DNA of 64,000 nucleotides from a virus, in the IMG/VR virus record IMGVR_UViG_3300044634_002329, positions 1 to 64,000 of that record; one strand, 5' to 3'. The translations under genes and the position numbers were made by a program. The notes beneath the pieces are model-generated. The model saw nothing but the letters and a program-made list of their open reading frames with translations, was not told where the DNA came from and ran no database searches. This document shows, in pieces, positions 22,706 through 55,331 of the stretch. Numbering within the stretch: the stretch's first letter is position 1; every line of letters starts with the position of its first letter.

Positions 22706-22737
22706 TTTATTATATTTGTGGTACCAACAAACATGTA

Positions 22738-22929
22738 ATGAGTAAAGAAGACAAAGTAATCCTGTCTATCAAAGACACGGAAGATGGACTAGAGGTCCGA
22801 ATCAATGAAGGTGCTTATGGTAATTTTGCCATAGTAGGTTTAATAGAGAAAATCAAGTTAGATATTCTTAATGGAAATACTCCAGAAGCTGAGCAACCTG
22901 TGAAAATTAGTAAAACATACGATGCATAA
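22738..22929 (+). CDS. hypothetical protein
   Basis: Downstream of TATATTTG promoter. Confidence 0.65.
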   Translation: MSKEDKVILSIKDTEDGLEVRINEGAYGNFAIVGLIEKIKLDILNGNTPEAEQPVKISKTYDA

Positions 22930-29079: not shown

Positions 29080-29319
29080 ATGAAAGATTTAAAAGAAAGA
29101 TGGAATTCTAAAACACCAAGTTTTTGGAAGAAAGTACAACGTATTGCTATTGTAGTTGGAGCAGTAGCTGGTACAATAATTGCAGCTCCTATTGCATTAC
29201 CAGCAGCTGTGATTACTGCAGCAGGATATGCAGTGGCTATTGGAACAGCAGTGGCTACAGTATCACAGTTTACAGTAGAAGACAAACCAACAAACACAGA
29301 AGAAAATGTTAACAACTGA
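29080..29319 (+). CDS. putative holin
   Basis: Two TM segments; directly upstream of endolysin. Confidence 0.65.
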
Positions 29320-29770
29320 AAAAACAATTAAAAAATATGGAATTCCCAATGTTGAAGGTACATATCTTACAACAATTACTCTACCTTATCCAATGCGTAT
29401 TGCATGGGATACTAAGGTTACTACAACTAAACTTAGATGCCATAAGTTAATTGCAGATAAAGTCTTAGCAGTATTTAAAGAAATCTTAGCAGTATATGGA
29501 TTACCAAAGATTCAAGAACTAGGTATTGACTTATTTGGAGGATGTTTTAATTTTAGAAAAATGAGAGGTGGATCAGATTGGTCTAAACACTCATGGGGAA
29601 TAGCTATTGACTTAGACCCTGCTAGAAATAAATTAAAAGAAACATCAAAGACTGCAAGATTTGCAAGACCTGAGTACAAACAAATGATTGATATCTTTGA
29701 AAAACATGGATTCCTTTCTCTAGGGAGATTGCACAACTATGACTGGATGCATTTTGAAATAAAAGAATAG
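29306..29770 (+). CDS. endolysin, peptidase M15 family
   Basis: FNFR...[10 protein letters not shown]...DWMHFE. Confidence 0.85.
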
Positions 29771-35525: not shown

Positions 35526-35532
35526 AAAAATT

Positions 35533-38280: not shown

Positions 38281-38368
38281 TATAGCCATATAGTAGAAAA
38301 AATTATAAAACAGTTTTAAATTTTTAAAATTTATTTACTATATTACATTATAAACAAAAACCAACAAA

Positions 38369-39631
38369 ATGTTTGAAGAAGAAAAAAAATCTGATAACCA
38401 GATTCTAGATGCTACAACGGTAGCACAAGTAGATGTAAACATTGATGAAATTTTTGGTGTACCTGGAGCAGAAAGTGTAATGCTTCCTGAAGATGGTAAA
38501 GAACCTGAAAAGCCAAAGTCAGTATTTACAAAAGAAACAGTAGATGTATCGTTCCTTGACAAGACAGTTAATACTCCTGATGATGTAGTGAGTAACAAAG
38601 CTGAAGTAGCAGAAACAATTGCTGAATTAGATGGTCTTATATCTCAAGAAGAAGATTCAGGTAACAAAGGAAGACCAAAAGTAGATAAGTCTGGTCTTAT
38701 GGAGTTAGCTCAAAAAATGATTGAAGATGGTGTTCTAGTTCCTTTTGCAGATGAAGAAGGAAATGAAATTCCTTTGGATAAATATACTACTAAAGACTTC
38801 AGAGAACTTTTTGAAGAAAACTTTCAAGAAAGAGAAAAAAAGATTAAAGAAAATACTCCAAAGGAATTCTTTAACTCTCTTCCAGAAGAACTTCAGATTG
38901 CTGCTAAATATGTAGCTGATGGTGGACAAGACATGAAAGGTCTTTTTAGAACATTAGCACAGATGGAGGAAATGATTCAATTAGATCCATCTAATGAATA
39001 TGATCAAGCAGAAATTGCTAGACAATATTTAACAGCTACTAACTTTGGTACTCCAGAAGAAATTGATGAAGAAATCAATGACTGGAAAGACATGGATAGA
39101 TTAGAACAAAAAGCTAATCAATTCAAACCTAAGTTAGACAGAATGCAAGAAGAAATTGTTGCAAAACAATTAGCAGAACAAGAACAGAAAAAAGAACAAC
39201 AAGCTAAAGCTGCTAAAGTTTATACAGATAATGTATACAATACACTATTAACAGGAGAAATAGGTGGGATTAAACTTGATAAGAAAACACAAGGTATGTT
39301 ATACTCAGGATTAGTTCAACCAAATTATTCTTCTATCTCAGGTAAACCTACAAATATGTTAGGTCACTTACTTGAAAAGTATCAGTTTGTAGAACCAAGA
39401 CATGATTTAATTGCTGAAGCTCTTTGGTTATTGTCAGATCCAGAAGGATACAAAACAAAGATTAAAGACCAAGGTTCTAAAGCAGCTACTGAAAAAACAG
39501 TAAGAATGTTAAAGACTGAAGAGTCTAGAAAAATTGCTTCAACTATAAATGAAGAAGAAGAAAAAAGAACAAATAAACCAAATAGAACAATACCAAGGGC
39601 TCAGGCCGGAAGTATGTTTAGAAGATTTTAA
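38369..39631 (+). CDS. putative scaffolding protein
   Basis: Acidic helical protein between portal and capsid genes. Confidence 0.65.
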   Translation: MFEEEKKSDNQILDATTVAQVDVNIDEIFGVPGAESVMLPEDGKEPEKPKSVFTKETVDVSFLDKTVNTPDDVVSNKAEVAETIAELDGLISQEEDSGNKGRPKVDKSGLMELAQKMIEDGVLVPFADEEGNEIPLDKYTTKDFRELFEENFQEREKKIKENTPKEFFNSLPEELQIAAKYVADGGQDMKGLFRTLAQMEEMIQLDPSNEYDQAEIARQYLTATNFGTPEEIDEEINDWKDMDRLEQKANQFKPKLDRMQEEIVAKQLAEQEQKKEQQAKAAKVYTDNVYNTLLTGEIGGIKLDKKTQGMLYSGLVQPNYSSISGKPTNMLGHLLEKYQFVEPRHDLIAEALWLLSDPEGYKTKIKDQGSKAATEKTVRMLKTEESRKIASTINEEEEKRTNKPNRTIPRAQAGSMFRRF

Positions 39632-39662
39632 ATAATAAACACTAATAAATAAACAAGTAAAA

Positions 39663-41279
39663 ATGGCAACTCCAGTTTTAAACAATGGTATATTCCTACG
39701 TGATACTGCTTATGCAGCTTCATCTCACGTAGATTCTTACCACTTAGTAAACATGCTTAAGGATGCTGAACCTATGGATTTAGGTCCGGTTGATCTTTGG
39801 GCTATGGCACAAAAGGTTGAAATGCCTCTTTACCAAATGTCTTCTTTCGGTGGAAAGAATGTCATTATGGTTGACAATGCTCGTGGAGAGTATAGATGGC
39901 AAACTCCAGTTTCAGTAGATCTACCTTACATTGTAGAGGACATTGAATCTGAAAATGATTTCAAAGGTATTGAAGGTACTACTTTCCGTATCAAGTTGAA
40001 CAAACGTGAGTTTGGACATGGTGATATTATCACTTATGACAAATACAACGGTGTTGAGATGTACATTACAGCTGAAGACATTCTTCCTATTGGAGATGGA
40101 TTTATCTATACTGTACAGTTGGTAAACAATGACAATTACAAATACTTGGATAACAAGTACTTGTCTAATGGTACAAAAGTTTTCCGTAAAGGTTCAGCTA
40201 GAGGTGAGTATGGTGAGAGATTCTCTGACATCATTACTAACACAGGTTTCCGTGAATTCTATAACTATGTAGGAGGTGCTGAAGCTCACGTACATTACTC
40301 TATCTCTTCTCGTGCAGATTTGATGATCAAAGGTGGAATGAATGCAGATGGTACAGTTCCTGTAACTGAAATCTGGAGAACATTTGACAAAAACATTGAT
40401 CCAGCAATTGCATCTTTGGATGATATGGTTAAGGTAATGGGTAAAGACAAAGTTAAAAAAGCATTTGACAATGGAGACTTGTCACGTACTTTCTTGACTA
40501 ACATGGAAGCTGCTCACTTAACAAAAATTGCAACGGATATTGAGACTTACCTTATGTGGGGACACGGAGGTAGAGTACGTCAAGATGGTCCAGATGATGT
40601 AAGATTGTCAGTGGGTCTTTGGAAACAATTGGATAACTCTTTCAAAAGAGTATACAATAAAAATAACTTTACATTGGATTTGTTCCGTGGAGAAATCTAC
40701 AACTTCTTCAATGGTAAAGTTGAGTTCCAAGGTCCAGATCCAAAAAGATCTTTGGTTGTACAAACTGGTATGGGTGGAATGAGAATGGTAAATGAAGCTA
40801 TCAAAAGAGAAGCAGTATCTTCTGGTCTTTTGATTCAAGCTGCTGATATCGGTGCAATCACTGGTAAAGGTATGGACTTGAACTTTGGATTTGCTTACAC
40901 TTCTTATGTTATTCCATTCTTGGCTAACGTGAAATTTGTATTGAATCCAGCATTTGACAATGTTCATACAAATGATATTGAGAACCCAATCATTGATGGT
41001 TTCCCATTATCTTCTTACTCATTCATTATCTTTGATATCACAGATAACACAAATGACAACATCTACATGTTGAAATTGTCTTGGGATAATCAATTGAAAT
41101 GGTGGTATCAAAATGGTACAATGGATTACATGGGTAGAACTCAAGGGTTCCAATCTTCTGGACAATTCAACGGATACCGTGTAATGATGTCTCAAACAAT
41201 GCCTGCTATTTGGGTTAAAGATCCAACTAAAGTATTAAAAATTGTTATGAGAAACCCAGTTACAGGTGGATCATTCTAA
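39663..41279 (+). CDS. major capsid protein
   Basis: 538 aa, synteny, highly expressed codon bias, own terminator. Confidence 0.85.
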   Translation: MATPVLNNGIFLRDTAYAASSHVDSYHLVNMLKDAEPMDLGPVDLWAMAQKVEMPLYQMSSFGGKNVIMVDNARGEYRWQTPVSVDLPYIVEDIESENDFKGIEGTTFRIKLNKREFGHGDIITYDKYNGVEMYITAEDILPIGDGFIYTVQLVNNDNYKYLDNKYLSNGTKVFRKGSARGEYGERFSDIITNTGFREFYNYVGGAEAHVHYSISSRADLMIKGGMNADGTVPVTEIWRTFDKNIDPAIASLDDMVKVMGKDKVKKAFDNGDLSRTFLTNMEAAHLTKIATDIETYLMWGHGGRVRQDGPDDVRLSVGLWKQLDNSFKRVYNKNNFTLDLFRGEIYNFFNGKVEFQGPDPKRSLVVQTGMGGMRMVNEAIKREAVSSGLLIQAADIGAITGKGMDLNFGFAYTSYVIPFLANVKFVLNPAFDNVHTNDIENPIIDGFPLSSYSFIIFDITDNTNDNIYMLKLSWDNQLKWWYQNGTMDYMGRTQGFQSSGQFNGYRVMMSQTMPAIWVKDPTKVLKIVMRNPVTGGSF

Positions 41280-41294
41280 TAAGTCAAAGGATAA

Positions 41295-41322
41295 CGGGAG
41301 AGATATTATGTTTCTCCCTTTA
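41295..41322 (+). terminator. intrinsic terminator after MCP
   Basis: GGGAGA...TCTCCC-TTT. Confidence 0.6.
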
Positions 41323-41361
41323 TTAATTTTTAAAAACCAATAATTAAAAACCAACAAAAAC

Positions 41362-42378
41362 ATGAGTACATTCACAATGGTTGAAACCAATAAGGCAAGC
41401 AACCGTAAAACAGCAATAGCAATCCGTCCTTTCTTTGATAATGCAGCTTCAAACATGGGATTAGAACATTATGGTTTATCTTTATATGATGGAGTTAAAC
41501 ACCATGAACAACTAGCTTGTTTAGAAAATAATGGAGTAATCAGATATGTAACTGGTCTAAATGAATTTGCACCAGAAATTAAGTTGCTTAATAAAGAAGA
41601 CAGAGAAGCTAGAGTACATGAAATTAGAACAGCTATTATTGAATTAGAAAAAGAATTAGCTGCTAATGTAATTGATATTGATAGTCCAACATTTTGGAAT
41701 GAAGTAAAATTGTTAAAACCAGATAATGCAGAATTTTGGAATAGAATTAATATTGCATGTGGTAATGATCCAGTTTTCCTAGATCCAAAAGATCCTTATG
41801 ATAGAATTAAACTTTATGCTATTGAAGCAGGAGGTTTTGCTATTGTAGCAAAAAGTTTTGATGATGCTAGATCCAAAGCAGTTCCACCAAAGTTTTACTT
41901 AGACAAAGAAGAAGAAACTGTAATGGCTAGAACTGAATACAAAAAAATGAGAAATAAAGCATTGTCTGAGCTTCAAAAATTATTTGACAAAAACAGTACT
42001 AAGTTATTCTACATTGCAAAAGTTGTAGATATTAATAGTACACAATATAGAAAAGCTACACCATTAGATGTTATCTATGAAAATATGGATAGATATATTA
42101 ATGGTGATGGTGGAGAAAGCAATAAAGAAAGAGCAGCTAAATCTTTTATTGAAACATCCAATATGGATATGGAAACACTAAAAATTAAATCAATTGTACG
42201 TGATTCCGTTTTTTTTAAGTATATTATTAATAAGGCTGATGGATATATTTATCATGTAAAATCAAATGCATTACTTGGTAGAAATGTTTCAGATGTTGTT
42301 GAGTTTTTAAAGAATCCTTTAAATGAAGATGTTTTAAAAGACTTGAGCACAGCCACAGAAAAATATTGGAACTCTTAA
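41362..42378 (+). CDS. conserved crAss-like protein downstream of MCP
   Basis: RYVTGL; synteny. Confidence 0.7.
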   Translation: MSTFTMVETNKASNRKTAIAIRPFFDNAASNMGLEHYGLSLYDGVKHHEQLACLENNGVIRYVTGLNEFAPEIKLLNKEDREARVHEIRTAIIELEKELAANVIDIDSPTFWNEVKLLKPDNAEFWNRINIACGNDPVFLDPKDPYDRIKLYAIEAGGFAIVAKSFDDARSKAVPPKFYLDKEEETVMARTEYKKMRNKALSELQKLFDKNSTKLFYIAKVVDINSTQYRKATPLDVIYENMDRYINGDGGESNKERAAKSFIETSNMDMETLKIKSIVRDSVFFKYIINKADGYIYHVKSNALLGRNVSDVVEFLKNPLNEDVLKDLSTATEKYWNS

Positions 42379-42390
42379 AATTAAAATAAA

Positions 42391-43329
42391 ATGGCAACAA
42401 AAAAAACATCAGCTCAATTAAAAGCTGAAGGTAAATCAATGAAACAAAAAGGCCAAGCTATGAAAAAGACTGGTCAAGTAATGAAAGTAGTTGGTAAATA
42501 TGATCCTGTAAATGTAGCAGGTAGAGCAGTAAATAACCTTAATAAAGGGATTGCTACTGGTGCAAATATTGCATCTAAAGCAGGTTCATTAGGAATGAAA
42601 GCTGCTCAACAAGGAGCAGGTAAAGTTGTAAAAGGAGCAATGGCTGCTACTAATGTATTAGGTGCTGCATTAAATCCAATTGGTACAGCTGTAAAAATAA
42701 TGAATGCTTCTCAAAAAGCACAAGCAAAAGCTAAAGCATCATCTAATAAAAAATCTTATGCAGATAGTAAAGGTGGTAAAACAACTGTAAGTAAAAATGC
42801 AAATGGTTCTAAAACTGTTGTATATAAAAAAGGTGATGTTAAGACTACTAAAACTTCTACTACAAAACCTGGAAAAAGTACATACAAAACAGGATCTGGA
42901 ACTTCAACAAAGTTTACACCTAATGTAACTAAGTCTACAATAAAAGTTGAAGCACCAAAAGGTACAACAATTAAAAATACTGATGGAAGTAAAAAAGCTA
43001 CTACTCCAAAACCAGCACCTGTAAAAGTTAAACCAATTACAGGTACTCAAAAAGTAGCTCCTAAAAAATCATCTAGTACATCTAGTAAATCTGAAGAAGT
43101 AACTCCATTGGCACCACGTAAAGCAACAGAAATTAGTATTGCTAGACCTGAGATTGCTAAAACTCCAGTTAAACAAAAATTTGGGGCTAGAGTTAAAGCT
43201 AAAGTTGCAGAAGCAGTTACTAACCGTAGAGAGAAAAAACTAGCTAAACTTAAAAGTAAGTTAGGTAAAATGAAAACTGGAGGTATGGTTAATCCTAATG
43301 TAAATGTATCTGTTAAACCAAAAGCATAA
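42391..43329 (+). CDS. K/A/T-rich histone-H1-like protein
   Basis: Very basic, low complexity; MKTGG motif. Confidence 0.7.
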   Translation: MATKKTSAQLKAEGKSMKQKGQAMKKTGQVMKVVGKYDPVNVAGRAVNNLNKGIATGANIASKAGSLGMKAAQQGAGKVVKGAMAATNVLGAALNPIGTAVKIMNASQKAQAKAKASSNKKSYADSKGGKTTVSKNANGSKTVVYKKGDVKTTKTSTTKPGKSTYKTGSGTSTKFTPNVTKSTIKVEAPKGTTIKNTDGSKKATTPKPAPVKVKPITGTQKVAPKKSSSTSSKSEEVTPLAPRKATEISIARPEIAKTPVKQKFGARVKAKVAEAVTNRREKKLAKLKSKLGKMKTGGMVNPNVNVSVKPKA

Positions 43330-43335
43330 ATAGTT

Positions 43336-43515
43336 ATGGCACAATATACAACTGGGAAACTTTGTAACCCAAATCCAAGTTTACAAGTACAAAAAGTCCC
43401 TGGTAGCAAAGGTACATTTGTTGGTCTTAATACACCAATTACTGTACAAACAGTTGCTAAAGGACGTGTAGGTGGAACTAGTTCAGCTCCTAAAACAGCA
43501 GAACCAAGTAAATAA
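43336..43515 (+). CDS. small basic protein (59 aa), absent from ORF track
   Basis: MAQYTTGKLCNPNPSLQVQKVPGSKG... Confidence 0.6.
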   Translation: MAQYTTGKLCNPNPSLQVQKVPGSKGTFVGLNTPITVQTVAKGRVGGTSSAPKTAEPSK

Positions 43516-43895: not shown

Positions 43896-44081
43896 ATGGA
43901 TAGAGTAAAAAGATTAACACAAAAAGAAAATAGACTTGTCAAGAAAGGTTACAAGGCTGTTGATGAAGGTAGAGAAAAAAAAGCTGATAGACTTTTAGGT
44001 AGAGCAGCTAAAACTCAAAACCGTATAATTAACATAACTGAAAGAAAAAAGGGAGGTAGTGTTAAAACTAAAAAGAAATAG
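43896..44081 (+). CDS. small basic protein
   Basis: RKKGG motif near C-terminus. Confidence 0.65.
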   Translation: MDRVKRLTQKENRLVKKGYKAVDEGREKKADRLLGRAAKTQNRIINITERKKGGSVKTKKK

Positions 44082-44083
44082 TC

Positions 44084-44632
44084 ATGGCAACAAAAAAAAC
44101 AACAGTTCATCCTCTTACTGCATTTAGAAAAGCTAATGAAGCTAGACTAGCTCCAGTAAAAAGATCTATGCAAAAAGCTCAAGAGGGTATGTCTTTTAAA
44201 AATACTTATGCTGGTCCATTGACAGAATCAGATACTAAAAGACTTGACCAAGCTTTTCCATCTACAACTACACCTAATGTACCATTTGCACCAGCAAAAC
44301 CAAATATGGGTTATGGTACTGAAGATATGTACAGACAAAAAGAATCAAGTGATAGATCTGCTTTTGAAAATTATTTAAGATCTCCTGCTGTTGGTCGTAA
44401 TAATAAAAGACTAGGAAAAGGTTTTAATAATGAAGCTCTTATGAATCAAAAGGGTAACCGTCAGGCTACAATAGCTAGTATAAATGAAATGAATAATATA
44501 GATTGGAAATCAGAAGAAGGTAACCAAACAAAAAAAATGTTAGATAGAGATTACAAAGAATCTTATAAAAAAGGAGGCTTAATAAAAAATGTGATTGCTA
44601 AAAAAACAATGATAAAATCTAAAAGAAAATAG
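44084..44632 (+). CDS. basic hypothetical protein
   Basis: AQEG and YKKGG motifs. Confidence 0.65.
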   Translation: MATKKTTVHPLTAFRKANEARLAPVKRSMQKAQEGMSFKNTYAGPLTESDTKRLDQAFPSTTTPNVPFAPAKPNMGYGTEDMYRQKESSDRSAFENYLRSPAVGRNNKRLGKGFNNEALMNQKGNRQATIASINEMNNIDWKSEEGNQTKKMLDRDYKESYKKGGLIKNVIAKKTMIKSKRK

Positions 44633-44634
44633 TA

Positions 44635-44907
44635 ATGGCAAAGACAGCTGCATGGACCCGTAAGGAGGGAAAGAATCCTACAGGAGGATTAAATGCTAAA
44701 GGAGTAGCAAGTTATAGAGCTGCTAATCCTGGTAGTAAACTTAAGACAGCTGTTACTACCAAACCATCAAAACTTGATCCGGATAGTAAACCGGCCAAAA
44801 GAAGAAAGTCATTCTGTGCTAGGATGTCAGGTATGCCTGGACCTATGAAGGATGAAAAAGGAAGACCTACAAGAAAGGCTCTTTCATTAAGAAAGTGGAA
44901 TTGTTAA
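44635..44907 (+). CDS. DUF6321-like basic protein
   Basis: AWTRKEGKNPTGGLNAKG...RRKSFCARM...LRKWNC. Confidence 0.75.
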   Translation: MAKTAAWTRKEGKNPTGGLNAKGVASYRAANPGSKLKTAVTTKPSKLDPDSKPAKRRKSFCARMSGMPGPMKDEKGRPTRKALSLRKWNC

Positions 44908-44918
44908 AACATTATATA

Positions 44919-46199
44919 ATGAAAAAAGTAGTTAAGAAATATGACAAAGGAGGTGCTAAACCTAAAGGTGTATCTAAACAAGTTGCATCAGTTACTGGTC
45001 TTCCTGAAGGTAGTTATGTTGCTAAATCTAAAGCAGTTACTAAACCTGCAGTTAAAACTATAACTAAAGCTCCTGTTAAAAAAAATGCAGCAGTAGGTAA
45101 AGCAACAGCTTATAAAACTGAAAAAAGAACTTATGTAGATCCTTCATCTCCAGCTTATTCAAAATTATCTGCTAAAGAAAGAAATGAAAATACTGCTAAT
45201 CAAGTAAGAAAATCAACAGGTACTCCTTTATATTATTCAACAGGTACTAAAGTAGCTTATAATAAAAAAAATAATACTAAAACTATTGTTAATTATAAAG
45301 CTGATGGTACTAAACAAACTAAAGTAATTAATTATTCTAAACCTGCTACAGCTAAAAAAGCTCCTGTTAAAACACCAGTTAAGCAACCAGTTAAAACTGC
45401 TTATGATGTATTAAAAGATAAGCAAACAGCAGTAAAAAATCCTAGAGTTGGTACACCAGTTAAAGGTACAGTTACTACAAATCCTAAGAAAACAGTTACT
45501 GTAAAAAAATCTACTGTTAAACCTGCAGCAGTTAAAGCTGTAGAAGAACAAGTAACTCCATTAGCATTTAAAAAAGTTTCTGACTTTGCTCCTATTAAAT
45601 CTACAGCTAGTTCAACTACAAGTTCTGCACCTAAAAGTACAGTTAGTAAAACAACTCCAGATAGAGTTAAAGCTCCTGTAAACAAACCTACGGTTAGTAT
45701 GGGTGAAAGACTTACTGGTTATAAAGGTACAAGTAAACCTGTTGCTAGTACAACTACTAGTGCACCTACTAGTACAATACCTACACCTACAGAATCAACT
45801 CCGGGTAGAGTTAGTTTAATAGATAGAATTAAAGGTAACATAGCTAAAAGAAAAATGAAAAGAATGGCTAAGTTATCTGAACAAGTTGGTCAAAGTAGAG
45901 CAATGGGTACATATGCTCAACCTGCTATGAAAAAAGGAGGTACTAAAAAATATGCTAAAGGTGGTTTTCCAGATTTAAATAAAGATGGTGAAGTTACTAA
46001 AGCTGATATTCTTAAAGGACGTGGGGTTATTGCTAGAAAAGGTGGGACTGTTAAAAAATTAGTTAAAGCTCAATATGGTATTAGTACGACTAAAGGAAGT
46101 ACAACTAAAAAACCTTTATATAACCCAGCTAAAATTAAAGTAACATCTAGTAAAAAAAAACCTAGTTATAATGAAGTTTTTAAAACTAAAAAGAAATAA
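44919..46199 (+). CDS. K/T/A/P-rich histone-H1-like protein
   Basis: Start reassigned to MKKVV; multiple xxKGG motifs; FPDLNKDGEVTKAD EF-hand-like loop. Confidence 0.7.
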   Translation: MKKVVKKYDKGGAKPKGVSKQVASVTGLPEGSYVAKSKAVTKPAVKTITKAPVKKNAAVGKATAYKTEKRTYVDPSSPAYSKLSAKERNENTANQVRKSTGTPLYYSTGTKVAYNKKNNTKTIVNYKADGTKQTKVINYSKPATAKKAPVKTPVKQPVKTAYDVLKDKQTAVKNPRVGTPVKGTVTTNPKKTVTVKKSTVKPAAVKAVEEQVTPLAFKKVSDFAPIKSTASSTTSSAPKSTVSKTTPDRVKAPVNKPTVSMGERLTGYKGTSKPVASTTTSAPTSTIPTPTESTPGRVSLIDRIKGNIAKRKMKRMAKLSEQVGQSRAMGTYAQPAMKKGGTKKYAKGGFPDLNKDGEVTKADILKGRGVIARKGGTVKKLVKAQYGISTTKGSTTKKPLYNPAKIKVTSSKKKPSYNEVFKTKKK

Positions 46200-46627: not shown

Positions 46628-47326
46628 ATGTTAAATAGTGTATTGACAATTAAATTAAAACAAAGAATCAATAAATTAGATTCTCAAGACTATGACAACA
46701 TAGAATGTTGGCAAGTTGTTGAGTCATTTAATAAAGCTCAAGTTGAATGGACTAGAAGACAACTCCATGGAATTAATCTTGTCAAAGAAGGTGATGAACA
46801 ATCTACTAGAAGAAAAGATGATCTTCAAGTATTATTAAATACATTACCGGTTACTATGACAGATAAAGAATATTACTATAAAGGAGCATTACCGGAAGAC
46901 TATTTACAATGGAAAAGAGTAGATGCTTATGCACAAAAAGATTGTTGTGATAATAGAAGAATGAGTGTGTATTTTGTAGAAGAAGGAAATCTTAATATAC
47001 TACTTAGAGATAAAGGAACACAACCAAACTTTGAATGGGCAGAAACATTTGCTACTTTAAAAAATAATGAGGTTAATATTTATACTAATAATGAATTTAA
47101 TATTCAAACTGTAGAATTAACTTTTTATAGACAACCTAGAAAAATTCAAATTAATGGCTGTGTTGATCCATATACTGGAATACAATCAACAGCAGATGTT
47201 ACATCTGAGTTTAAAGATGACATAGTAGAATTAATAATAGATGAAGCTGCTAGTATTTTAGCCGGAGACATTGAATCAGGAAATCAATATTCTAGAGGAT
47301 CAGAAGGAGCAGAACGTAATAACTAA
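46628..47326 (+). CDS. putative tail ring/adaptor protein
   Basis: NKLDS...FNKAQ...LPEDYL...YRQP; crAss-like synteny. Confidence 0.65.
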   Translation: MLNSVLTIKLKQRINKLDSQDYDNIECWQVVESFNKAQVEWTRRQLHGINLVKEGDEQSTRRKDDLQVLLNTLPVTMTDKEYYYKGALPEDYLQWKRVDAYAQKDCCDNRRMSVYFVEEGNLNILLRDKGTQPNFEWAETFATLKNNEVNIYTNNEFNIQTVELTFYRQPRKIQINGCVDPYTGIQSTADVTSEFKDDIVELIIDEAASILAGDIESGNQYSRGSEGAERNN

Positions 47327-47331
47327 TAACA

Positions 47332-47823
47332 ATGGAAAAAAGAATGTTAAAAAGACCAGCTAATCAAGAAGTAAAAACTACTGATTCTTCTGTCACACCA
47401 ATTAAAGTACAATCTACAATAGATAGTAATACAGGTGGTAGTTCACTAGATAATATGGTAGCATCTTGTGGAGTTGAACTTATGAATGCTAGAAATACAT
47501 TTCACAAGTTACATCTTAAAGTAACCGGGGAGGGTTCATATGCTGCTCATAAAGCTTTAAATAAGTTTTATGATGCAATTCCTGATTTTGTAGATACACT
47601 AATGGAAGGATATCAAGGAGCTGCTGAAAAAATATTAACATGTAAAGATGTTGCTCCTAGAACAGTAGATGATATAGCAGATGGAATAGCATACCTTAGA
47701 GAAATTTATGGTATGATTAATAAACTTCAAGGAAAATTACCTTATTCAGAAATAGTAAATAATCTTGACTTAGTTAAAGATGCCATCAATTCAACTAAAT
47801 ACAAATTATTATTCTTAAAATAA
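47332..47823 (+). CDS. Dps/ferritin-like protein (DUF5856-like)
   Basis: HKLHL...SYAAHKALNKFYD...D.LMEGYQG...TKYKL. Confidence 0.75.
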   Translation: MEKRMLKRPANQEVKTTDSSVTPIKVQSTIDSNTGGSSLDNMVASCGVELMNARNTFHKLHLKVTGEGSYAAHKALNKFYDAIPDFVDTLMEGYQGAAEKILTCKDVAPRTVDDIADGIAYLREIYGMINKLQGKLPYSEIVNNLDLVKDAINSTKYKLLFLK

Positions 47824-47886
47824 TTTTGATTAATCAAAATAAATTAGTATATTAAATATATATTTATCAATTAAAAACAAAAAACA

Positions 47887-49425
47887 ATGAGTTATTTTAA
47901 TCATGCTTTCCAAAAGACCTTTGTAGGTACTAATGGATTCACAGGTTTAAATGAAGGTAAATTAGGTACACCAGGAAATATTCTTTCTGGTGGAGAATTT
48001 GCTTTTGTTGATGCTAAAACATGGACTGTTTTGGCTACAGATGCAGAACCAGGATGTTGCAATCTTGTATTAGCTGCAGGTTCTATTTATCAAAAAGATA
48101 AAATCGGTCCATTTCATGGTGGTTATTTAGAGTCTAATAAATCTAAAGAAATCAATCCTAAATATGTAAGCCGTTTTTACCGTGTTGATCCATGTACTCC
48201 TTCTGCTAATGTTATTCACGTAGGTAAAACTCCTTACACTGCAGATGGTGTATTATCTTTAGCAATTACTGATGATGGTGCTGACCTAGAAGATGGTGTT
48301 TATACTGACATTCCATTAGTTGATACAACTGCACCAACAGGTTCAGGATTACTTGTTAATATTACTGTAGTAGATAATGTAGTTGAGTTTGTAGAAATTG
48401 TTAATGGTGGTACAGGATGGGTTACTGCAGATGTAGTTACAACTACTGTTGGTGAACCAATTCCTGCTATTGCTGGTGAAACAGGTACACAACCTACATT
48501 TACAGTTACTGCTGGTGTTGGTGCAAATTGTTGCAAAGAGTTCTTATGTGGTGAGACTTATAATTTACGTTTAGATGTAAAAGGTTCTCCTGCTATGAGA
48601 TACTTAAATCACAATGCATACTTAACAGTTACTGCTTACACAGGATGTTGTCCAGTTGGTTCTATTGCACCTTCTGCAGTTGACTCTACTGAAGTAATGA
48701 TTAAATGGGCACAACAAATTATTGATTCTCCAATCATTAATCCATTTATTTTACCAGTAGTTATTGACGAAGCTCAAATTGCATGGTATGCTCCAGGAAC
48801 AGATGCTAACTTCTTAGCTGCTTATAATGTTGATACTTGGGATCATTATGTATCTCCAGGACATACTGAAGGTGCATGTGCAGGATTAGTTCTTAATGGA
48901 TCTTATGTTGATACTAAGTTTGGTGATTGTACATTCCAAATTTCTGACTTCTATGAAGTTGAGCCAGTTAGATTGTATGCATCTGAAACAGATTTAAATG
49001 GTGATCCTTGTACTTTTGAAGGTATCTGTGTAGTTACAGAATGTCAAGGTTCTCAAGCAATGGGTCTTGGTGAGTCAGTAGCACGTGAGGTTATCTTGTC
49101 TGAAGCATATAGACAAAATTTCTTCTCTAGTGACTTCAGGATTCGTGAGATTACTCAAGGTAATTCAGTATTTAATTACATTGACCGTAATTCTTTGTAT
49201 ACAAGATACTACTTACAACACAATGTTCCACGTTTCAATAACCCATCAAGCACATTTGATAATGATCAATACTTATTGGAAATCATTACAGATGGTGATA
49301 TAGTGGCTTTTGAAGAATTTGTAAGAGGATGGTTAGAAAATTGTTCTCAGTGTCCAGAACTTGAAATAGTAGAATGTAAAACATCTTGTATTTCTGTTGT
49401 TCCTAATGTTAATACTTGGGATTAA
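47887..49425 (+). CDS. structural protein, candidate auxiliary capsid protein
   Basis: Own promoter and terminator; synteny. Confidence 0.6.
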   Translation: MSYFNHAFQKTFVGTNGFTGLNEGKLGTPGNILSGGEFAFVDAKTWTVLATDAEPGCCNLVLAAGSIYQKDKIGPFHGGYLESNKSKEINPKYVSRFYRVDPCTPSANVIHVGKTPYTADGVLSLAITDDGADLEDGVYTDIPLVDTTAPTGSGLLVNITVVDNVVEFVEIVNGGTGWVTADVVTTTVGEPIPAIAGETGTQPTFTVTAGVGANCCKEFLCGETYNLRLDVKGSPAMRYLNHNAYLTVTAYTGCCPVGSIAPSAVDSTEVMIKWAQQIIDSPIINPFILPVVIDEAQIAWYAPGTDANFLAAYNVDTWDHYVSPGHTEGACAGLVLNGSYVDTKFGDCTFQISDFYEVEPVRLYASETDLNGDPCTFEGICVVTECQGSQAMGLGESVAREVILSEAYRQNFFSSDFRIREITQGNSVFNYIDRNSLYTRYYLQHNVPRFNNPSSTFDNDQYLLEIITDGDIVAFEEFVRGWLENCSQCPELEIVECKTSCISVVPNVNTWD

Positions 49426-49446
49426 TCAATTATAAATCTAGAAAGG

Positions 49447-49480
49447 AAGGGGAGAGAGTTATAAACTCCTCCCTTTTTTT
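49447..49480 (+). terminator. intrinsic terminator
   Basis: AAGGGGAGAGAGTT...AACTCCTCCCTTTTTTTT. Confidence 0.7.
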
Positions 49481-49495
49481 ATTAAAAAATATATT

Positions 49496-50038
49496 ATGGC
49501 CAATCATGTATTAAGTTTAGAAGTACCTACAGTAATGAATTCTTGTATCTTAAAGATATTTGATACAAGTGTTTATAGTGATTTACTTCCAATAACTTGT
49601 CCAACATTAAATATTACGGTACCTGGTTTTGATTTTGCAAACCAGATAGATGTAACAGAAAACTTTTTTGGAACATATACAGCTTGTGATTTACAATTAC
49701 AAACAACTGATTGTGGTACCAGATATGTAGAAATACCAGATGGTATATACATTATTAAATATAGTGTTTCTCCTAATGATCAAGTATATGTAGAATATAA
49801 TCATATGAGAATTACTAAAGCATTAATTAGATACAATAAAGCATTGTGTGATGTTGATCTGTCTAATTGTGCACCTCCGGCTAAGTCTCAACAAAGATTA
49901 ACTGAGTTAGCTTTAATTAAAAGTTATTTAGAAGCAGCTAAAGCAAAAGTTGAATTTTGTCATGAACCACAAAAAGGTATGACTTTATATAATTATGCTC
50001 TTAGACTTTTAGATAAATTAGATTGTAGAAATTGTTAA
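49496..50038 (+). CDS. putative tail structural protein
   Basis: IPDGIYIIKYSV Ig-like segment plus helical C-terminus. Confidence 0.6.
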   Translation: MANHVLSLEVPTVMNSCILKIFDTSVYSDLLPITCPTLNITVPGFDFANQIDVTENFFGTYTACDLQLQTTDCGTRYVEIPDGIYIIKYSVSPNDQVYVEYNHMRITKALIRYNKALCDVDLSNCAPPAKSQQRLTELALIKSYLEAAKAKVEFCHEPQKGMTLYNYALRLLDKLDCRNC

Positions 50039-50059
50039 AATATTTAAAACCAACAAATT

Positions 50060-50242
50060 ATGGCAACATGTTCAAATTGTAAAGCAAACTTATCTTGTGG
50101 CTGTCAAAAAAGAACAGCTTCAGATAAAACATCTGTATGTTCAAACTGTCTTTCAAAATATGAAGCAAGTTTAAAAACTAGTACAGTTAAACCTGCTCCA
50201 ATCAGTAATCATATATGGGGAGCTAATAGATATAAAAAATAA
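50060..50242 (+). CDS. small Cys-rich protein
   Basis: CSNC..LSCGCQ...CSNC. Confidence 0.65.
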   Translation: MATCSNCKANLSCGCQKRTASDKTSVCSNCLSKYEASLKTSTVKPAPISNHIWGANRYKK

Positions 50243-53398: not shown

Positions 53399-53402
53399 TA
53401 TT

Positions 53403-53957
53403 ATGTCAACAAATAATACATGTAAAAAATGTGGATGTCAAGACCAAGCTTTGACTACACCAATAGTATACCCTACTCCGGCACCATGTCTTAAGCCGGA
53501 ACCATGTTCTGAAGCTTTTGATTCTCAATGTGTATATTATACAGGAGATGATATTATGTGTGGTACTGATATTGTAGTACATCAAGATGATACTATAGAA
53601 ACTGCATTAAATGATATAGTAGATTATTTTTGTACTAATGTCCCTGTACCAACAGCAAATATATTAAAAGTTACTATTAATAAAAATCTTTTAGATCCTT
53701 TAAAGTTAGATTCTACAATTGTAGGAGGTACAGGACCCTTTATATACAATTGGTCTATTGCTCAAAATGTATTTATGGGTCATAACTTTAATGGTTCTAC
53801 TACTATAAATAGTGCACTTTTTACTATAACTACTGATGGTATTCGCACTGTAAATGGAGATAGTTTATTTCAATCATTAATAAAGTTAGAAGTTACTGAT
53901 GTTAATGGAGCTTATGGTTCTGCATATTATACATTTTCAACAGTAACTGCAGGTTAA
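53403..53957 (+). CDS. structural protein (Cys-rich N-domain, SprB/PKD-like C-domain)
   Basis: CVYYTGDDIMC; GGTGPFIYNWS...VTDVNG. Confidence 0.65.
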   Translation: MSTNNTCKKCGCQDQALTTPIVYPTPAPCLKPEPCSEAFDSQCVYYTGDDIMCGTDIVVHQDDTIETALNDIVDYFCTNVPVPTANILKVTINKNLLDPLKLDSTIVGGTGPFIYNWSIAQNVFMGHNFNGSTTINSALFTITTDGIRTVNGDSLFQSLIKLEVTDVNGAYGSAYYTFSTVTAG

Positions 53958-53966
53958 AAATATTAA

Positions 53967-54030
53967 GTTACAGTTTGTTGGTTTCTGTGACAACAAAGCA
54001 AAGCCCCTGCACTTGTAGGGGTTTTGTTTT
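53967..54030 (+). ncRNA. candidate 3'-UTR small RNA: seed hairpin plus terminator
   Basis: GTTACAG-TTTGTTGGTTT-CTGTGAC then GCAAAGCCCCTGCA-CT-TGTAGGGGTTTTGT terminator. Confidence 0.5.
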
Positions 54031-54087
54031 TATACTATCTTTACATTTGTTAAATACAGTAATTTTTAGTATATTAATAGTAATAGT

Positions 54088-54669
54088 ATGAAAGAATGTA
54101 AAGCACCAGATGTAAAAGGACCACGTTATAGACCTGAAGTATATAATGTTTTAAACAAAGAGTTTTGTAATAATTTTAGAAAAAAATACCCAAAGTATAA
54201 AAACTTAGATAACATTACTATAAGAGCTATAATAAAACAATTTAATGAAACAATATATAATACAGTTATTGAAACAAGAGATGGTGTGCAATTACCTGAA
54301 TCTATTGGTTGGATATTTATAGGTACTTGCCAACAAAGTAAAAAAAGAAATATTGACTTTGCTAAGTCACAAAAATATGGAGTAACAGTTATAAATCAAA
54401 ACTGGGATTCAGATGGTAAGTTAGCTAAAATATTTTTTACTAGTTATGCATTAAAACACAAAATGAAGAATAGAGAGTTTTGGAGTTTTGTAGCTTGTAG
54501 AAATTTTAAAAGAAAAGTAGCTAAGACTTATCCTGAAAACTGGAACATGTATGTAGCAGTAGATCCAACAAAAAAAATAAATATGAATTATAGTAAAGCT
54601 TACTATAAAGATATAAAAGCTAAGGAAACTACTAAAGCTTTAAAAAACTATAATGAATTTGACTTATGA
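54088..54669 (+). CDS. IHF/HU-like protein
   Basis: IIKQFNETI...DGVQLPESIGWIFI; position before ring genes. Confidence 0.65.
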   Translation: MKECKAPDVKGPRYRPEVYNVLNKEFCNNFRKKYPKYKNLDNITIRAIIKQFNETIYNTVIETRDGVQLPESIGWIFIGTCQQSKKRNIDFAKSQKYGVTVINQNWDSDGKLAKIFFTSYALKHKMKNREFWSFVACRNFKRKVAKTYPENWNMYVAVDPTKKINMNYSKAYYKDIKAKETTKALKNYNEFDL

Positions 54670-55331
54670 CAACAATTGGAGAAGCAATATCAAGAGTAAG
54701 GCACACATTAAAAGCAGTTAATGAAGATGCTTTTTTAACTGATAGAACCATATATTTTTCATTACTAAAGTATGCTAAGTCTTTAATTAAAAGAGAAGAC
54801 AATCAATTTAGATTAATGAAGATGAGTTCTATCTTTTCTACTTTACCATACATTGAATTGATTGATGTAGATAGAATAGATGCTGGATGTCTTGGTGTAT
54901 ATTCCGGATGTTACTTTAAAAGATCCAAAGATAAATTACCTGAAATACTAAATGGTATGTTTGGCCCTATTATACGTACAGCATCTTCAATAGATGGTAG
55001 TATAGAAATGTTTAGAACAGAACCAGGTATATGGAGTTCAATGACAAAGTCAACTACTTTTAGATATAACAAAAATAAATACTTTTGGTTTTTAGATGGT
55101 TATTTATATTTTCCTAATTTAGAATGGGATGCTGTAAGAGTAGAAGCAGTATTTGAAGGTAGACTAGATACATGTGAAACTAAAGATGATTGCTCATTAA
55201 AACAAGATCAAGTATTCTTTTTACCTGAATACTTATTTAGTGAAGTTGAACAATATGTAGTTAAAGAATTAACCATGACTATATCAGTTCCTACAAATGG
55301 TCCGGATGATAGTCAAAATGCTCAAAGATAA
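54666..55331 (+). CDS. putative tail ring protein
   Basis: Synteny; YFWFLDGYLYF. Confidence 0.65.
   Translation: MTTIGEAISRVRHTLKAVNEDAFLTDRTIYFSLLKYAKSLIKREDNQFRLMKMSSIFSTLPYIELIDVDRIDAGCLGVYSGCYFKRSKDKLPEILNGMFGPIIRTASSIDGSIEMFRTEPGIWSSMTKSTTFRYNKNKYFWFLDGYLYFPNLEWDAVRVEAVFEGRLDTCETKDDCSLKQDQVFFLPEYLFSEVEQYVVKELTMTISVPTNGPDDSQNAQR

What the first reader, a model, noticed from the sequence alone, without database searches (positions are those of the whole stretch)
53967..54030. Intergenic hairpin whose loop is the exact antisense of an 11-mer at several late-gene starts: candidate phage trans-acting sRNA
Seen: after the last tail-fibre-block gene and just before a terminator, a 7-bp stem (GTTACAG/CTGTGAC) presents loop TTTGTTGGTTT. 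Its complement AAACCAACAAA lies at 38358-38368 (touching the scaffold ATG), 41348-41358 (gene after MCP), 50047-50057 (small Cys protein) and 29284-29294 (just upstream of the endolysin ATG at 29306), with partial copies at 22723 and 30059. An alternative stem TTTGTTG/CAACAAA (53974-53997) would hide the seed. Inference: a 3'-UTR-derived, possibly switchable RNA that couples tail-operon transcription to translation of head-assembly and lysis genes. I know of no described crAss-like equivalent.
Basis: partly seen in the sequence, partly recalled or inferred. Interest (0 to 1): 0.82.

Follow-up and report, generated by a model that had tools for sequence, protein, structure and literature searches.

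The report
Conserved phage anti-leader RNA hairpin
A large group of uncultured lake phages keeps one small RNA hairpin at the end of a virion-gene operon whose exposed loop mirrors a short tag placed just before the start codons of the same few head genes, so it probably controls their translation by RNA-to-RNA pairing, although no transcript has been seen.

Summary
The 11-mer stands at 29284, 38358, 41348 and 50047 (+), and its complement forms the hairpin loop at 53974-53984: 5 sites against 0.19 expected.

The hairpin is a real, selected structure. It was found in all 78 sources that include the region, with 27 different stems and an invariant 7-nt loop core. All 7 pairs show double changes, and G-U pairs place the structure on the mRNA-sense strand. 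It lies between a stop codon and an intrinsic terminator, once per genome.

The complementary box is gene-specific. It occurs before the scaffold-like gene (70 of 79 leaders), the gene after the capsid gene (77 of 78) and a small Cys-rich gene (27 of 40). It was absent from all 347 leaders of seven other genes plus 2 endolysin leaders.

Best reading, at about 0.6: a 3'-UTR base-pairing RNA that regulates translation, probably by repression.

Not supported:
- the proposed switch is not conserved;
- the endolysin target is not conserved;
- loop and box covary only weakly beyond the core;
- no transcript evidence was obtained.

Rfam has no match, and two literature searches turned up no paper on it. 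This scan has already noted the same family on at least seven other genomes.

The parts
53403..53957 (+). Last ORF of the operon (184 aa). Its stop codon lies 9 nt before the hairpin. Called 'tail fibre' by position only.
   Evidence: ORF list. No PHROG or Pfam hit. The upstream gene differs between relatives while the hairpin is kept.
53967..53973 (+). 5' arm of the hairpin
   Evidence: Covariation with the 3' arm in relatives.
53974..53984 (+). 11-nt loop, the proposed seed. Its core 53977-53983 is invariant in all hairpins found.
   Evidence: Unpaired probability 0.98.
53985..53991 (+). 3' arm of the hairpin
53991..53997 (+). Not conserved outside the close clade.
53995..54031 (+). Intrinsic terminator: an A-tract, a G+C stem at 54004-54021 and a U-tract.
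   Evidence: A terminator follows the hairpin within 0-15 nt in 77 of 79 rows.
38358..38368 (+). Leader box touching the ATG of the scaffold-like gene
   Evidence: Box present in 70 of 79 orthologous leaders and in 8 of 8 diverged genomes.
38369..39631 (+). Target gene 1: a 420-aa protein between portal and capsid genes. The model is mostly helical with a disordered N-terminus, which looks like a scaffold protein.
   Evidence: Model of mean pLDDT 66. No family hit.
41348..41358 (+). Leader box 3 nt before the ATG of the gene after the major capsid gene
   Evidence: Box in 77 of 78 orthologous leaders, 37 of them with two or more copies.
41362..42378 (+). Target gene 2: a 338-aa protein of unknown function
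   Evidence: Model of mean pLDDT 81.6. No PDB fold match, best E 0.19. No family hit.
50047..50057 (+). Leader box 2 nt before the ATG of the small Cys-rich gene, in the same operon as the hairpin
   Evidence: Box in 27 of 40 orthologous leaders.
50060..50242 (+). Target gene 3: a 60-aa Cys-rich protein
   Evidence: Translation. No Pfam hit.
29284..29294 (+). Box 11 nt before the endolysin ATG, inside the preceding ORF. Specific to this genome.
   Evidence: Not conserved.
22721..22731 (+). Partial box (2 mismatches) before the 63-aa ORF at 22738
   Evidence: tblastn found no relative of this ORF in the seven other genomes.
41296..41318 (+). Terminator-like hairpin after the capsid gene. It suggests that targets 1 and 2 lie on transcripts other than the one carrying the hairpin.

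Best explanation
The hairpin is the functional part of the 3' untranslated end of the last virion-gene operon before the terminator at 54004-54031. In the RNA, a 7-bp stem holds an 11-nt loop open. The loop pairs with the box that sits 0-13 nt before the start codons of a small, fixed set of head-module messages: the scaffold-like gene, the gene after the capsid gene and the small Cys-rich gene. Pairing needs at least the invariant 7 nt and reaches 11 nt in this phage.

The box lies inside the stretch that a 30S subunit must cover. The most likely effect is therefore that the bound hairpin RNA blocks initiation, so that output of these proteins falls as transcripts of the distal operon accumulate.

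Shown:
- the structure and its strand;
- its place between a stop codon and a terminator;
- one copy per genome;
- the gene-specific, conserved complementarity.

Inferred:
- that the RNA is made and is stable;
- that loop and box actually pair;
- that the effect is repression rather than activation or stabilisation;
- that the RNA acts in trans on the scaffold-like and post-capsid messages, and possibly within one transcript on the Cys-rich gene.

The confidence of 0.6 is for regulation by loop-box pairing of either sign. Repression alone I put at about 0.4.
For: 1. Structure.
- A hairpin was found in 78 of 78 sources that include the region (window plus 77 loci). The other three of the 81 sources are cut short of it.
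- There are 31 distinct hairpins with 27 distinct stems, and the 7-nt loop core never changes.
- On the model-based alignment, 7 of 7 pairs show changes on both sides and 98.1% of cells are paired.
- 0 of 500 shuffles reach any of the five measures, and slid controls give 26-51% paired.

2. Strand.
- 27 of 156 cells are G-U or U-G pairs on the + strand, and G-U is the commonest pair at one position.
- These would be mismatches on the other strand.

3. Place.
- The stop codon of an ORF of 60 aa or more lies 0-21 nt upstream in 71 of 79 rows.
- A terminator follows within 0-15 nt in 77 of 79 rows.
- Sequence upstream of the hairpin is not conserved, so a conserved promoter of its own is unlikely.

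4. Copy number.
- Model R1 finds exactly one match in each of 20 of 20 long records picked through the capsid gene. 13 of these were not already known.

5. Boxes.
- In 80 capsid-gene loci (1.28 Mb) the sense 11-mer occurs 104 times exactly and 296 times with one mismatch. The antisense occurs 0 and 9 times.
- 81 of the 104 exact copies lie 0-11 nt before the ATG of an ORF of 40 aa or more, 79 of them within 0-4 nt.
- Four permuted controls of the same composition occur 1-4 times.

6. Gene specificity.
- With box: scaffold-like 70/79, post-capsid 77/78, Cys-rich 27/40.
- Without box: terminase 0/61, portal 0/78, capsid 0/80, and four further genes 0/28, 0/41, 0/15 and 0/44.

7. Depth.
- In eight diverged genomes the box is in 22 of 23 target leaders.
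- Each genome has 2-7 boxed leaders against 0.05-0.41 expected from coding sequence.
- 0 of 2000 leader shuffles reach the observed count in seven genomes, and 6 of 2000 in the eighth.

8. Own loop against own leaders.
- The longest Watson-Crick run is 7-11 nt for 20 target leaders.
- It is 2-8 nt, mostly 3-5, for 49 leaders of seven other conserved genes.

9. Access and energy.
- The loop core is 0.97-0.98 unpaired and the boxes average 0.75 unpaired.
- The duplex energy is -11.7 to -12.4 kcal/mol in this phage.
Against: - No transcript has been seen. The one RNA run on offer held contigs only over the capsid gene and one other gene.
- Covariation between loop and box beyond the invariant core is weak. 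After correcting one mis-picked loop, 256 of 5040 reassignments of loops to genomes do as well as the true one. The uncorrected run gave 23 of 5040 by run length but 847 of 5040 by energy.
- The first loop base varies (T or G) without a matching change in the last box base in the contigs where both were seen.
- Box variants include transversions that would break pairs outside the core.
- In the most distant clade the loop is unchanged, but the boxes are shorter and lie 12-13 nt from the ATG. The loop may therefore have another, more conserved partner.
- RNAalifold on a plain MAFFT alignment of 33 hairpins predicted no structure, because stems were out of register. The pair counts come from an alignment fitted to the model, which leans towards the structure.
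- Model R1 missed 6 of 35 sources with short stems or long loops.
Confidence: 0.6

Rival explanations
1. Loop and box do pair, but the effect is positive. The hairpin RNA would activate or stabilise the boxed messages, for example by protecting an A/C-rich leader from an endonuclease or by helping ribosome loading in a host that does not use Shine-Dalgarno pairing. This is a sub-case of the pairing reading: its 0.2 lies inside the 0.6 given there.
For: The evidence for complementarity is the same as for the main reading. The boxed genes include one that looks like a scaffold protein, which is needed in many copies. Nearly half of the post-capsid leaders carry two or more boxes (37 of 78), as would suit a recruiting site. 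No SD-like element is visible in the leaders printed (my reading of the output; not counted).
Against: The capsid gene, which should be the most highly expressed, never has the box (0 of 80). A duplex ending 0-4 nt from the ATG usually blocks the 30S subunit (general knowledge of sRNA action, not tested here). No inhibitory leader structure that pairing would open is conserved: the small hairpin around the box at 38351-38375 was seen only in this genome.
Confidence: 0.2
2. The hairpin is a protein-binding site and works without pairing to the boxes. It could be an operator, or a nut/boxB-like site acting on the terminator that follows it.
For: An invariant loop on a freely covarying stem is the usual look of a protein-recognised RNA hairpin. 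The hairpin lies 0-15 nt before a terminator. The loop stays unchanged in the distant clade where the boxes are shorter.
Against: It leaves the gene-specific, conserved complementarity unexplained. A protein that binds single-stranded RNA cannot read both a sequence and its complement. No candidate partner protein was identified.
Confidence: 0.13
3. The element acts on DNA. One double-strand-binding protein, or a recombination boundary sequence, would use the same motif in either orientation.
For: As double-stranded DNA the motif is the same in both orientations. The hairpin lies at the border between hypervariable genes upstream and conserved genes downstream.
Against: Stem covariation with many G-U pairs on one strand only points to a single-stranded RNA. 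Orientation of the motif is almost absolute: 400 sense against 9 antisense copies in the capsid-gene loci. Its spacing to the ATG is tight. Neither is expected of a DNA-binding site.
Confidence: 0.04
4. The hairpin only stabilises the 3' end of the message, the boxes are an unrelated translation signal, and the complementarity is chance.
For: Hairpins in front of terminators are common. A/C-rich leaders are unstructured (boxes average 0.75 unpaired).
Against: A stabilising hairpin needs no invariant loop. The complement of the loop is the very word that is enriched at starts: 5 sites against 0.19 expected, 0 of 2000 leader shuffles, and 104 copies against 1-4 for permuted words.
Confidence: 0.03

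Closest known systems
c4 antisense RNA of phages P1 and P7 (as described in the review PMC12197685; passages read)
   Same: It is a phage-made RNA. Its complementary sequences are thought to sit in loops, and they pair around the ribosome binding site of a phage message to block translation. It is encoded apart from its target sites rather than opposite them.
   Different: c4 controls an antirepressor and immunity in temperate phages. Here the targets are head-module genes of a phage with no sign of lysogeny examined. There is no sequence or structure match to any Rfam family at the gathering score. This element is a single hairpin in a 3' UTR with three or more dispersed targets.
3'-UTR-derived base-pairing small RNAs of bacteria (CpxQ, SroC, DapZ type; recalled, no paper read here)
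   Same: It sits between a stop codon and the message's own terminator, has no conserved promoter of its own, and carries a short conserved seed against the translation start regions of several messages.
   Different: Release as a separate RNA, and any chaperone, are unknown. The seed is in a hairpin loop rather than a single-stranded 5' end. It is encoded by a phage and aimed at the phage's own genes.
Staphylococcal Rsa RNAs with a conserved loop motif (PMC2790875; search listing and abstract only)
   Same: By my recollection of the paper, which is not in the abstract I saw, a short conserved motif displayed in hairpin loops pairs with the ribosome-loading region of several targets without Hfq.
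   Different: By the same recollection, those loops are C-rich and pair with the Shine-Dalgarno sequence. Here the box is an A/C-rich phage-specific tag, not an SD.
Post-transcriptional self-control of the P22 scaffolding protein (recalled, no paper read here)
   Same: The synthesis of a phage scaffold protein is tuned after transcription.
   Different: In P22 the regulator is the free protein itself. Here it would be an RNA from another operon. That target 1 is a scaffold protein is itself only inferred.
Lambda boxB / nut hairpins (recalled)
   Same: A small hairpin with a fixed loop and a covarying stem lies upstream of a terminator.
   Different: No partner protein or boxA-like element is known here. 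boxB has no complementary boxes at gene starts.

Membership tests
3'-UTR-derived base-pairing sRNA | Lies between the stop codon and the intrinsic terminator of a protein-coding message | tested here: met
   A stop codon lies 0-21 nt upstream in 71 of 79 rows and a terminator 0-15 nt downstream in 77 of 79. In the window the stop is at 53955-53957 and the terminator stem at 54004-54021.
3'-UTR-derived base-pairing sRNA | A discrete small RNA accumulates, by processing or from an internal promoter | not testable with these tools
   The only RNA run on offer had no contig over 53775-54425. Contigs cannot show RNA ends in any case.
3'-UTR-derived base-pairing sRNA | A conserved seed complementary to conserved sites on target messages | tested here: met
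   The 7-nt loop core is invariant. The box is present in 70/79, 77/78 and 27/40 orthologous leaders and in 0 of 347 leaders of seven other genes plus 0 of 2 endolysin leaders. Own-loop runs are 7-11 nt on targets against 2-8 nt on other genes.
3'-UTR-derived base-pairing sRNA | Seed and target change together (compensatory evolution) | tested here: inconclusive
   256 of 5040 reassignments of loops to genomes do as well as the true one. The terminal position does not covary. The core never varies, so it cannot inform.
P1/P7 c4-type antisense RNA (Rfam C4 family; accession not checked) | Sequence and structure match to the family model | tested here: not met
   A cmscan of 53800-54200 against all 4227 Rfam families found nothing at a gathering score. 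The best hit scored 26.1 bits against a cut-off of 55 and is an unrelated leader family.
P1/P7 c4-type antisense RNA | Loop sequences complementary to the ribosome-loading region of a phage message | tested here: met
Intrinsic (Rho-independent) terminator | A G+C-rich stem followed by a U-tract | tested here: met
   This holds for 53995-54031, not for the hairpin at 53967-53991, which has no U-tract of its own.
boxB/nut-type antitermination hairpin | A cognate RNA-binding antiterminator protein and read-through of the downstream terminator | not tested
   No candidate protein was sought. It cannot be shown from sequence alone.
crAss-like phages (Crassvirales) | Capsid, portal and terminase related to those of known crAss-like phages | tested here: inconclusive
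   The capsid protein matches crAss001 gp32 (7qof) only at E 0.002 over residues 313-528. The best match in cultured phages is Leptolyngbya phage Lbo-JY46 at 28%. The 1794-aa protein has no match among solved structures.

The most novel reading that the evidence does not exclude
The hairpin RNA is a phage-supplied stand-in for the Shine-Dalgarno system. The host does not appear to use SD pairing, since no SD-like element is seen in the leaders. The phage tags a few of its messages with a private box placed where an SD would sit, and makes a small RNA whose loop reads that tag and brings the message to the ribosome or keeps it there. This would give the phage a private, orthogonal translation channel for head assembly genes.
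Probability: 0.06. Interest if true: 0.9.

Novelty: new variant of a known kind. Interest (0 to 1): 0.62.

Why it matters
If the pairing is real, a widespread group of uncultured freshwater phages runs a small RNA regulon over its own head-assembly genes. The regulator would be a single hairpin in a 3' UTR.

Phage-encoded base-pairing RNAs described so far mostly concern lysogeny, immunity or host genes (review PMC12197685, passages read). An RNA that sets the ratio of structural proteins in a lytic-type phage would be a new use of the principle.

The element is small, sharply defined and easy to test with synthetic RNAs and reporter fusions. It also gives a compact sequence-plus-structure marker for this phage clade.

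Tried and rejected
- blastn of 53400-54700 against cultured phage records found no match.
- The search for related loci with the protein of 44895-46199 found no relatives.
- Rfam: 16 weak hits, all far below the gathering scores and mostly driven by the terminator.
- RNA evidence: one metatranscriptome run (X1) holds 6% of the sampled words. When laid, its contigs cover only parts of 37500-38150, 39453-41405, 42708-43358, 44010-44660 and 47265-49868, with none on the hairpin or the boxes. This says nothing either way.
- RNAalifold on a MAFFT alignment of 33 hairpins predicted no pairs, because stems of different sequence and loops of different length were out of register. I then used a covariance model built from four in-register seeds.
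- Model R1 found nothing in Leptolyngbya phage Lbo-JY46 or in Cellulophaga phage phi14:2. An empty answer from a 25-position model is weak evidence of absence.
- Function of the post-capsid protein: the model is good (pLDDT 81.6), but Foldseek against the PDB gave no match better than E 0.19. Pfam and PHROGs gave nothing for any target.
- The idea that the loop mimics a host rRNA segment could not be tested. The host is unknown, and the SSU search returned no loci of control genomes.
- A resemblance of the loop core to some tRNA D-loops is only a recollection and was not tested.
- Minus-strand RNA displaying the box as a decoy: rejected. The many G-U pairs would be mismatches on that strand, and a terminator-like site precedes the hairpin on that strand.
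- Host promoter inside the boxes: I saw no consistent upstream element in the contexts printed.
The same question was then answered from stored files.

Full report
**What is in the window**

The window is the first 64 kb of a 119,985-bp virus record with direct terminal repeats and 31% G+C.
- PHROG hits name a large terminase, a portal and a major head protein at 33324-41279, and an endolysin at 29306-29770.
- The capsid protein matches crAss001 gp32 only weakly (E 0.002).
- Its best match among cultured phages is a Leptolyngbya phage at 28% identity.

'crAss-like' is therefore a distant relationship, not a close one.

At 53967-53991 a 7-bp stem, with one G-U pair, closes an 11-nt loop. About 12 nt further on lies an intrinsic terminator, with its stem at 54004-54021 followed by a U-tract. 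The stop codon of the preceding ORF (53403-53957) lies 9 nt before the stem.

The fold of 53955-54035 is -30.8 kcal/mol, with z -5.55, and 0 of 200 shuffles are as stable.

The complement of the loop occurs exactly at 29284, 38358, 41348 and 50047.
- With the loop that makes five sites, against 0.19 expected.
- No further copy exists in the rest of the genome.
- The four copies end 11, 0, 3 and 2 nt before the ATGs at 29306, 38369, 41362 and 50060.

**The hairpin is a selected RNA structure**

The conserved gene at 54666-55331 served as bait and fetched 80 related loci with 48-80% protein identity.
- All 77 that reach far enough upstream carry a hairpin at the corresponding place. Three loci are cut short.
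- Together with the window there are 31 distinct hairpins with 27 distinct stems.
- The seven central loop bases (53977-53983 in the window) never change.

A plain MAFFT alignment put the stems out of register, and RNAalifold predicted nothing on it. I therefore built a covariance model from four in-register seeds and aligned its hits.
- The model found the hairpin in 29 of 35 sources.
- It missed six sources with short stems or long loops.
- It added two weak non-hairpin hits in the window.

On that alignment:
- all 7 pairs show changes on both sides;
- 98.1% of cells are paired;
- none of 500 shuffles reaches the observed values;
- sliding the partner by 1-3 columns drops pairing to 26-51%.

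The alignment is fitted to the model, which favours the structure. The independent stem listing shows the same thing.

27 of the 156 cells are G-U or U-G pairs. They would be mismatches on the opposite strand, so the structure is selected in the sense of the genes, as RNA.

**Place and copy number**

The figures come from 79 rows found with a looser filter.
- The stop codon of an ORF of at least 60 aa lies 0-21 nt before the hairpin in 71 rows.
- A terminator follows within 0-15 nt in 77 rows.

The genes upstream differ between relatives, and the conserved block begins only a few bases before the stem. A conserved promoter of its own is therefore unlikely, and the hairpin belongs to a 3' UTR.

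I searched 20 long records chosen through the capsid gene, 13 of them not seen before. The model found exactly one hairpin in each. It found none in Leptolyngbya phage Lbo-JY46 or in Cellulophaga phage phi14:2.

**The boxes are a gene-specific signal**

In 80 loci fetched with the capsid protein (1.28 Mb):

| Word | Exact copies | One mismatch |
|---|---|---|
| Sense 11-mer | 104 | 296 |
| Antisense 11-mer | 0 | 9 |

- 81 of the 104 exact copies stand 0-11 nt before the ATG of an ORF of at least 40 aa, and 79 of them within 0-4 nt.
- Four permutations of the same composition occur only 1-4 times.

Sorted by gene, the 7-nt core box lies in the last 30 nt before the start as follows:

| Gene | Leaders with box / examined |
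|---|---|
| Scaffold-like | 70 / 79 |
| Post-capsid (37 with two or more copies) | 77 / 78 |
| Small Cys-rich | 27 / 40 |
| Terminase | 0 / 61 |
| Portal | 0 / 78 |
| Capsid | 0 / 80 |
| Four further genes | 0 / 28, 0 / 41, 0 / 15, 0 / 44 |
| Endolysin | 0 / 2 |

The same holds in eight whole or nearly whole genomes that share only 40-60% identity in these proteins.
- The box is present in 22 of 23 target leaders.
- Each genome has 2-7 boxed leaders against 0.05-0.41 expected.
- Shuffled leaders reach the observed count in 0 of 2000 trials in seven genomes, and in 6 of 2000 in the eighth.

**Do loop and box fit each other?**

Each genome's own loop forms 7-11 contiguous Watson-Crick pairs with its 20 target leaders. 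With 49 leaders of seven other conserved genes it forms 2-8, mostly 3-5.

The loop core is 0.97-0.98 unpaired in the predicted ensemble, and the boxes average 0.75 unpaired. The 11-bp duplex of this phage is worth about -12 kcal/mol.

Variant loops exist: one lineage changed the bases 5' of the core, and another lengthened the loop. The leaders of those lineages have lost or changed the matching 3' part of the box.

As a formal test, however, this is weak.
- After I corrected one mis-picked loop, 256 of 5040 reassignments of loops to genomes do as well as the true one.
- The uncorrected run gave 23 of 5040 by run length and 847 of 5040 by energy.
- The first loop base does not covary with the last box base.
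- In the most distant clade the loop is unchanged, but the boxes shrink to 7-9 nt and lie 12-13 nt from the ATG.

The firm statement is therefore conserved complementarity of a 7-nt core, extended in some lineages. Proven compensatory evolution cannot be claimed.

**How it most likely works**

The simplest account that covers all of this is a base-pairing regulatory RNA. The 3' end of the distal virion operon carries a stable hairpin that presents a seed. The seed pairs with the tag in front of a fixed set of head-module genes.

The tag lies inside the 30S footprint, so I favour repression of initiation. In that case production of the scaffold-like protein and its two companions would fall as distal-operon transcripts build up.

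A terminator-like site after the capsid gene (41296-41318) suggests that targets 1 and 2 are on other transcripts, so the action there would be in trans. The Cys-rich gene may share a transcript with the hairpin.

Still inferred are the sign of the effect, the release of a separate small RNA and any helper protein. The rivals are activation or protection, a protein-binding hairpin, a DNA-level site, and chance. They are weighed in their own sections.

- The sRNA reading is supported as far as sequence can go.
- The 'switch' is not. The alternative stem is present here, but it is not kept in relatives and is negligible in the ensemble.
- The link to lysis is not conserved.
- The targets have no recognisable family. 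The 420-aa protein models as a mostly helical protein with a disordered N-terminus, which fits a scaffold protein but does not prove it. The 338-aa protein has a confident model without any PDB match.

**Comparison with what is known**

- No Rfam family matches.
- A full-text search for 'crAss-like' with 'sRNA' lists two papers, and neither title concerns such an element. A second search with 'Crassvirales' listed no paper holding that word.
- The phi14:2 transcription preprint (passages read) reports middle and late transcription by the host polymerase. The word 'hairpin' does not occur in its main text.
- A 2025 review of phage small RNAs (passages read) lists nothing of this kind. Its nearest case is the c4 RNA of P1 and P7.

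The element works like a c4-type or 3'-UTR-derived base-pairing RNA, but it is not a member of any catalogued family.

This scan has already noted the same family on at least seven other genomes. Those notes are unchecked AI notes. I tested the claim of some of them that loop and boxes change together, and found only weak support.

Noticed in passing
window 54030-54087: The stretch between the terminator and the next ORF (54088) is conserved in relatives. To my eye it contains a match to the Bacteroidota -7 promoter consensus (recalled, not scanned). That would make the downstream operon a separate, host-transcribed unit and would hint at a Bacteroidota host.
   Followed up: no
L086-L165, about 15-30 nt before the post-capsid gene: 37 of 78 post-capsid leaders carry two or more copies of the core box in tandem a few bases apart. 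One relative (G001) has three.
   Followed up: partly
L108, L113, L114, L125 and others, last 30 nt before the capsid gene: Some relatives have a run of two to three overlapping one-mismatch versions of the 11-mer directly before the capsid ATG. The exact 7-nt core box is never there (0 of 80).
   Followed up: no
window 38351-38375: In this genome the box before the scaffold-like gene sits in the loop of a possible 5-bp hairpin whose 3' arm includes part of the start codon. It is also a weak minus-strand hit of model R1. It is not seen in the other genomes.
   Followed up: partly
G015 (L176) near record position 81454: A second small hairpin has a loop holding the 7-nt core and is followed by a terminator-like hairpin. 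It may be a second copy in the distant clade.
   Followed up: no
G006 (record of 245,646 bases), positions 37880 and 167376: Two copies of the loop 11-mer lie in the same orientation in one very long record. This could be two genomes joined in one assembly or a true second copy.
   Followed up: no
G000 101695 (minus strand) and G001 74722 (minus strand), outside the window: A 123-126-aa ORF in the other arm of the genome also has the core box just before its ATG in two genomes. It may be a fourth conserved target.
   Followed up: no
I did not look at it.
   Followed up: no
window 39453-41405 and 47265-49868: Contigs of a freshwater metatranscriptome run (X1) lie on the capsid gene and on the gene at 47887-49425, with 88-100% likeness. 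Relatives of this phage are therefore present in an RNA library.
   Followed up: partly
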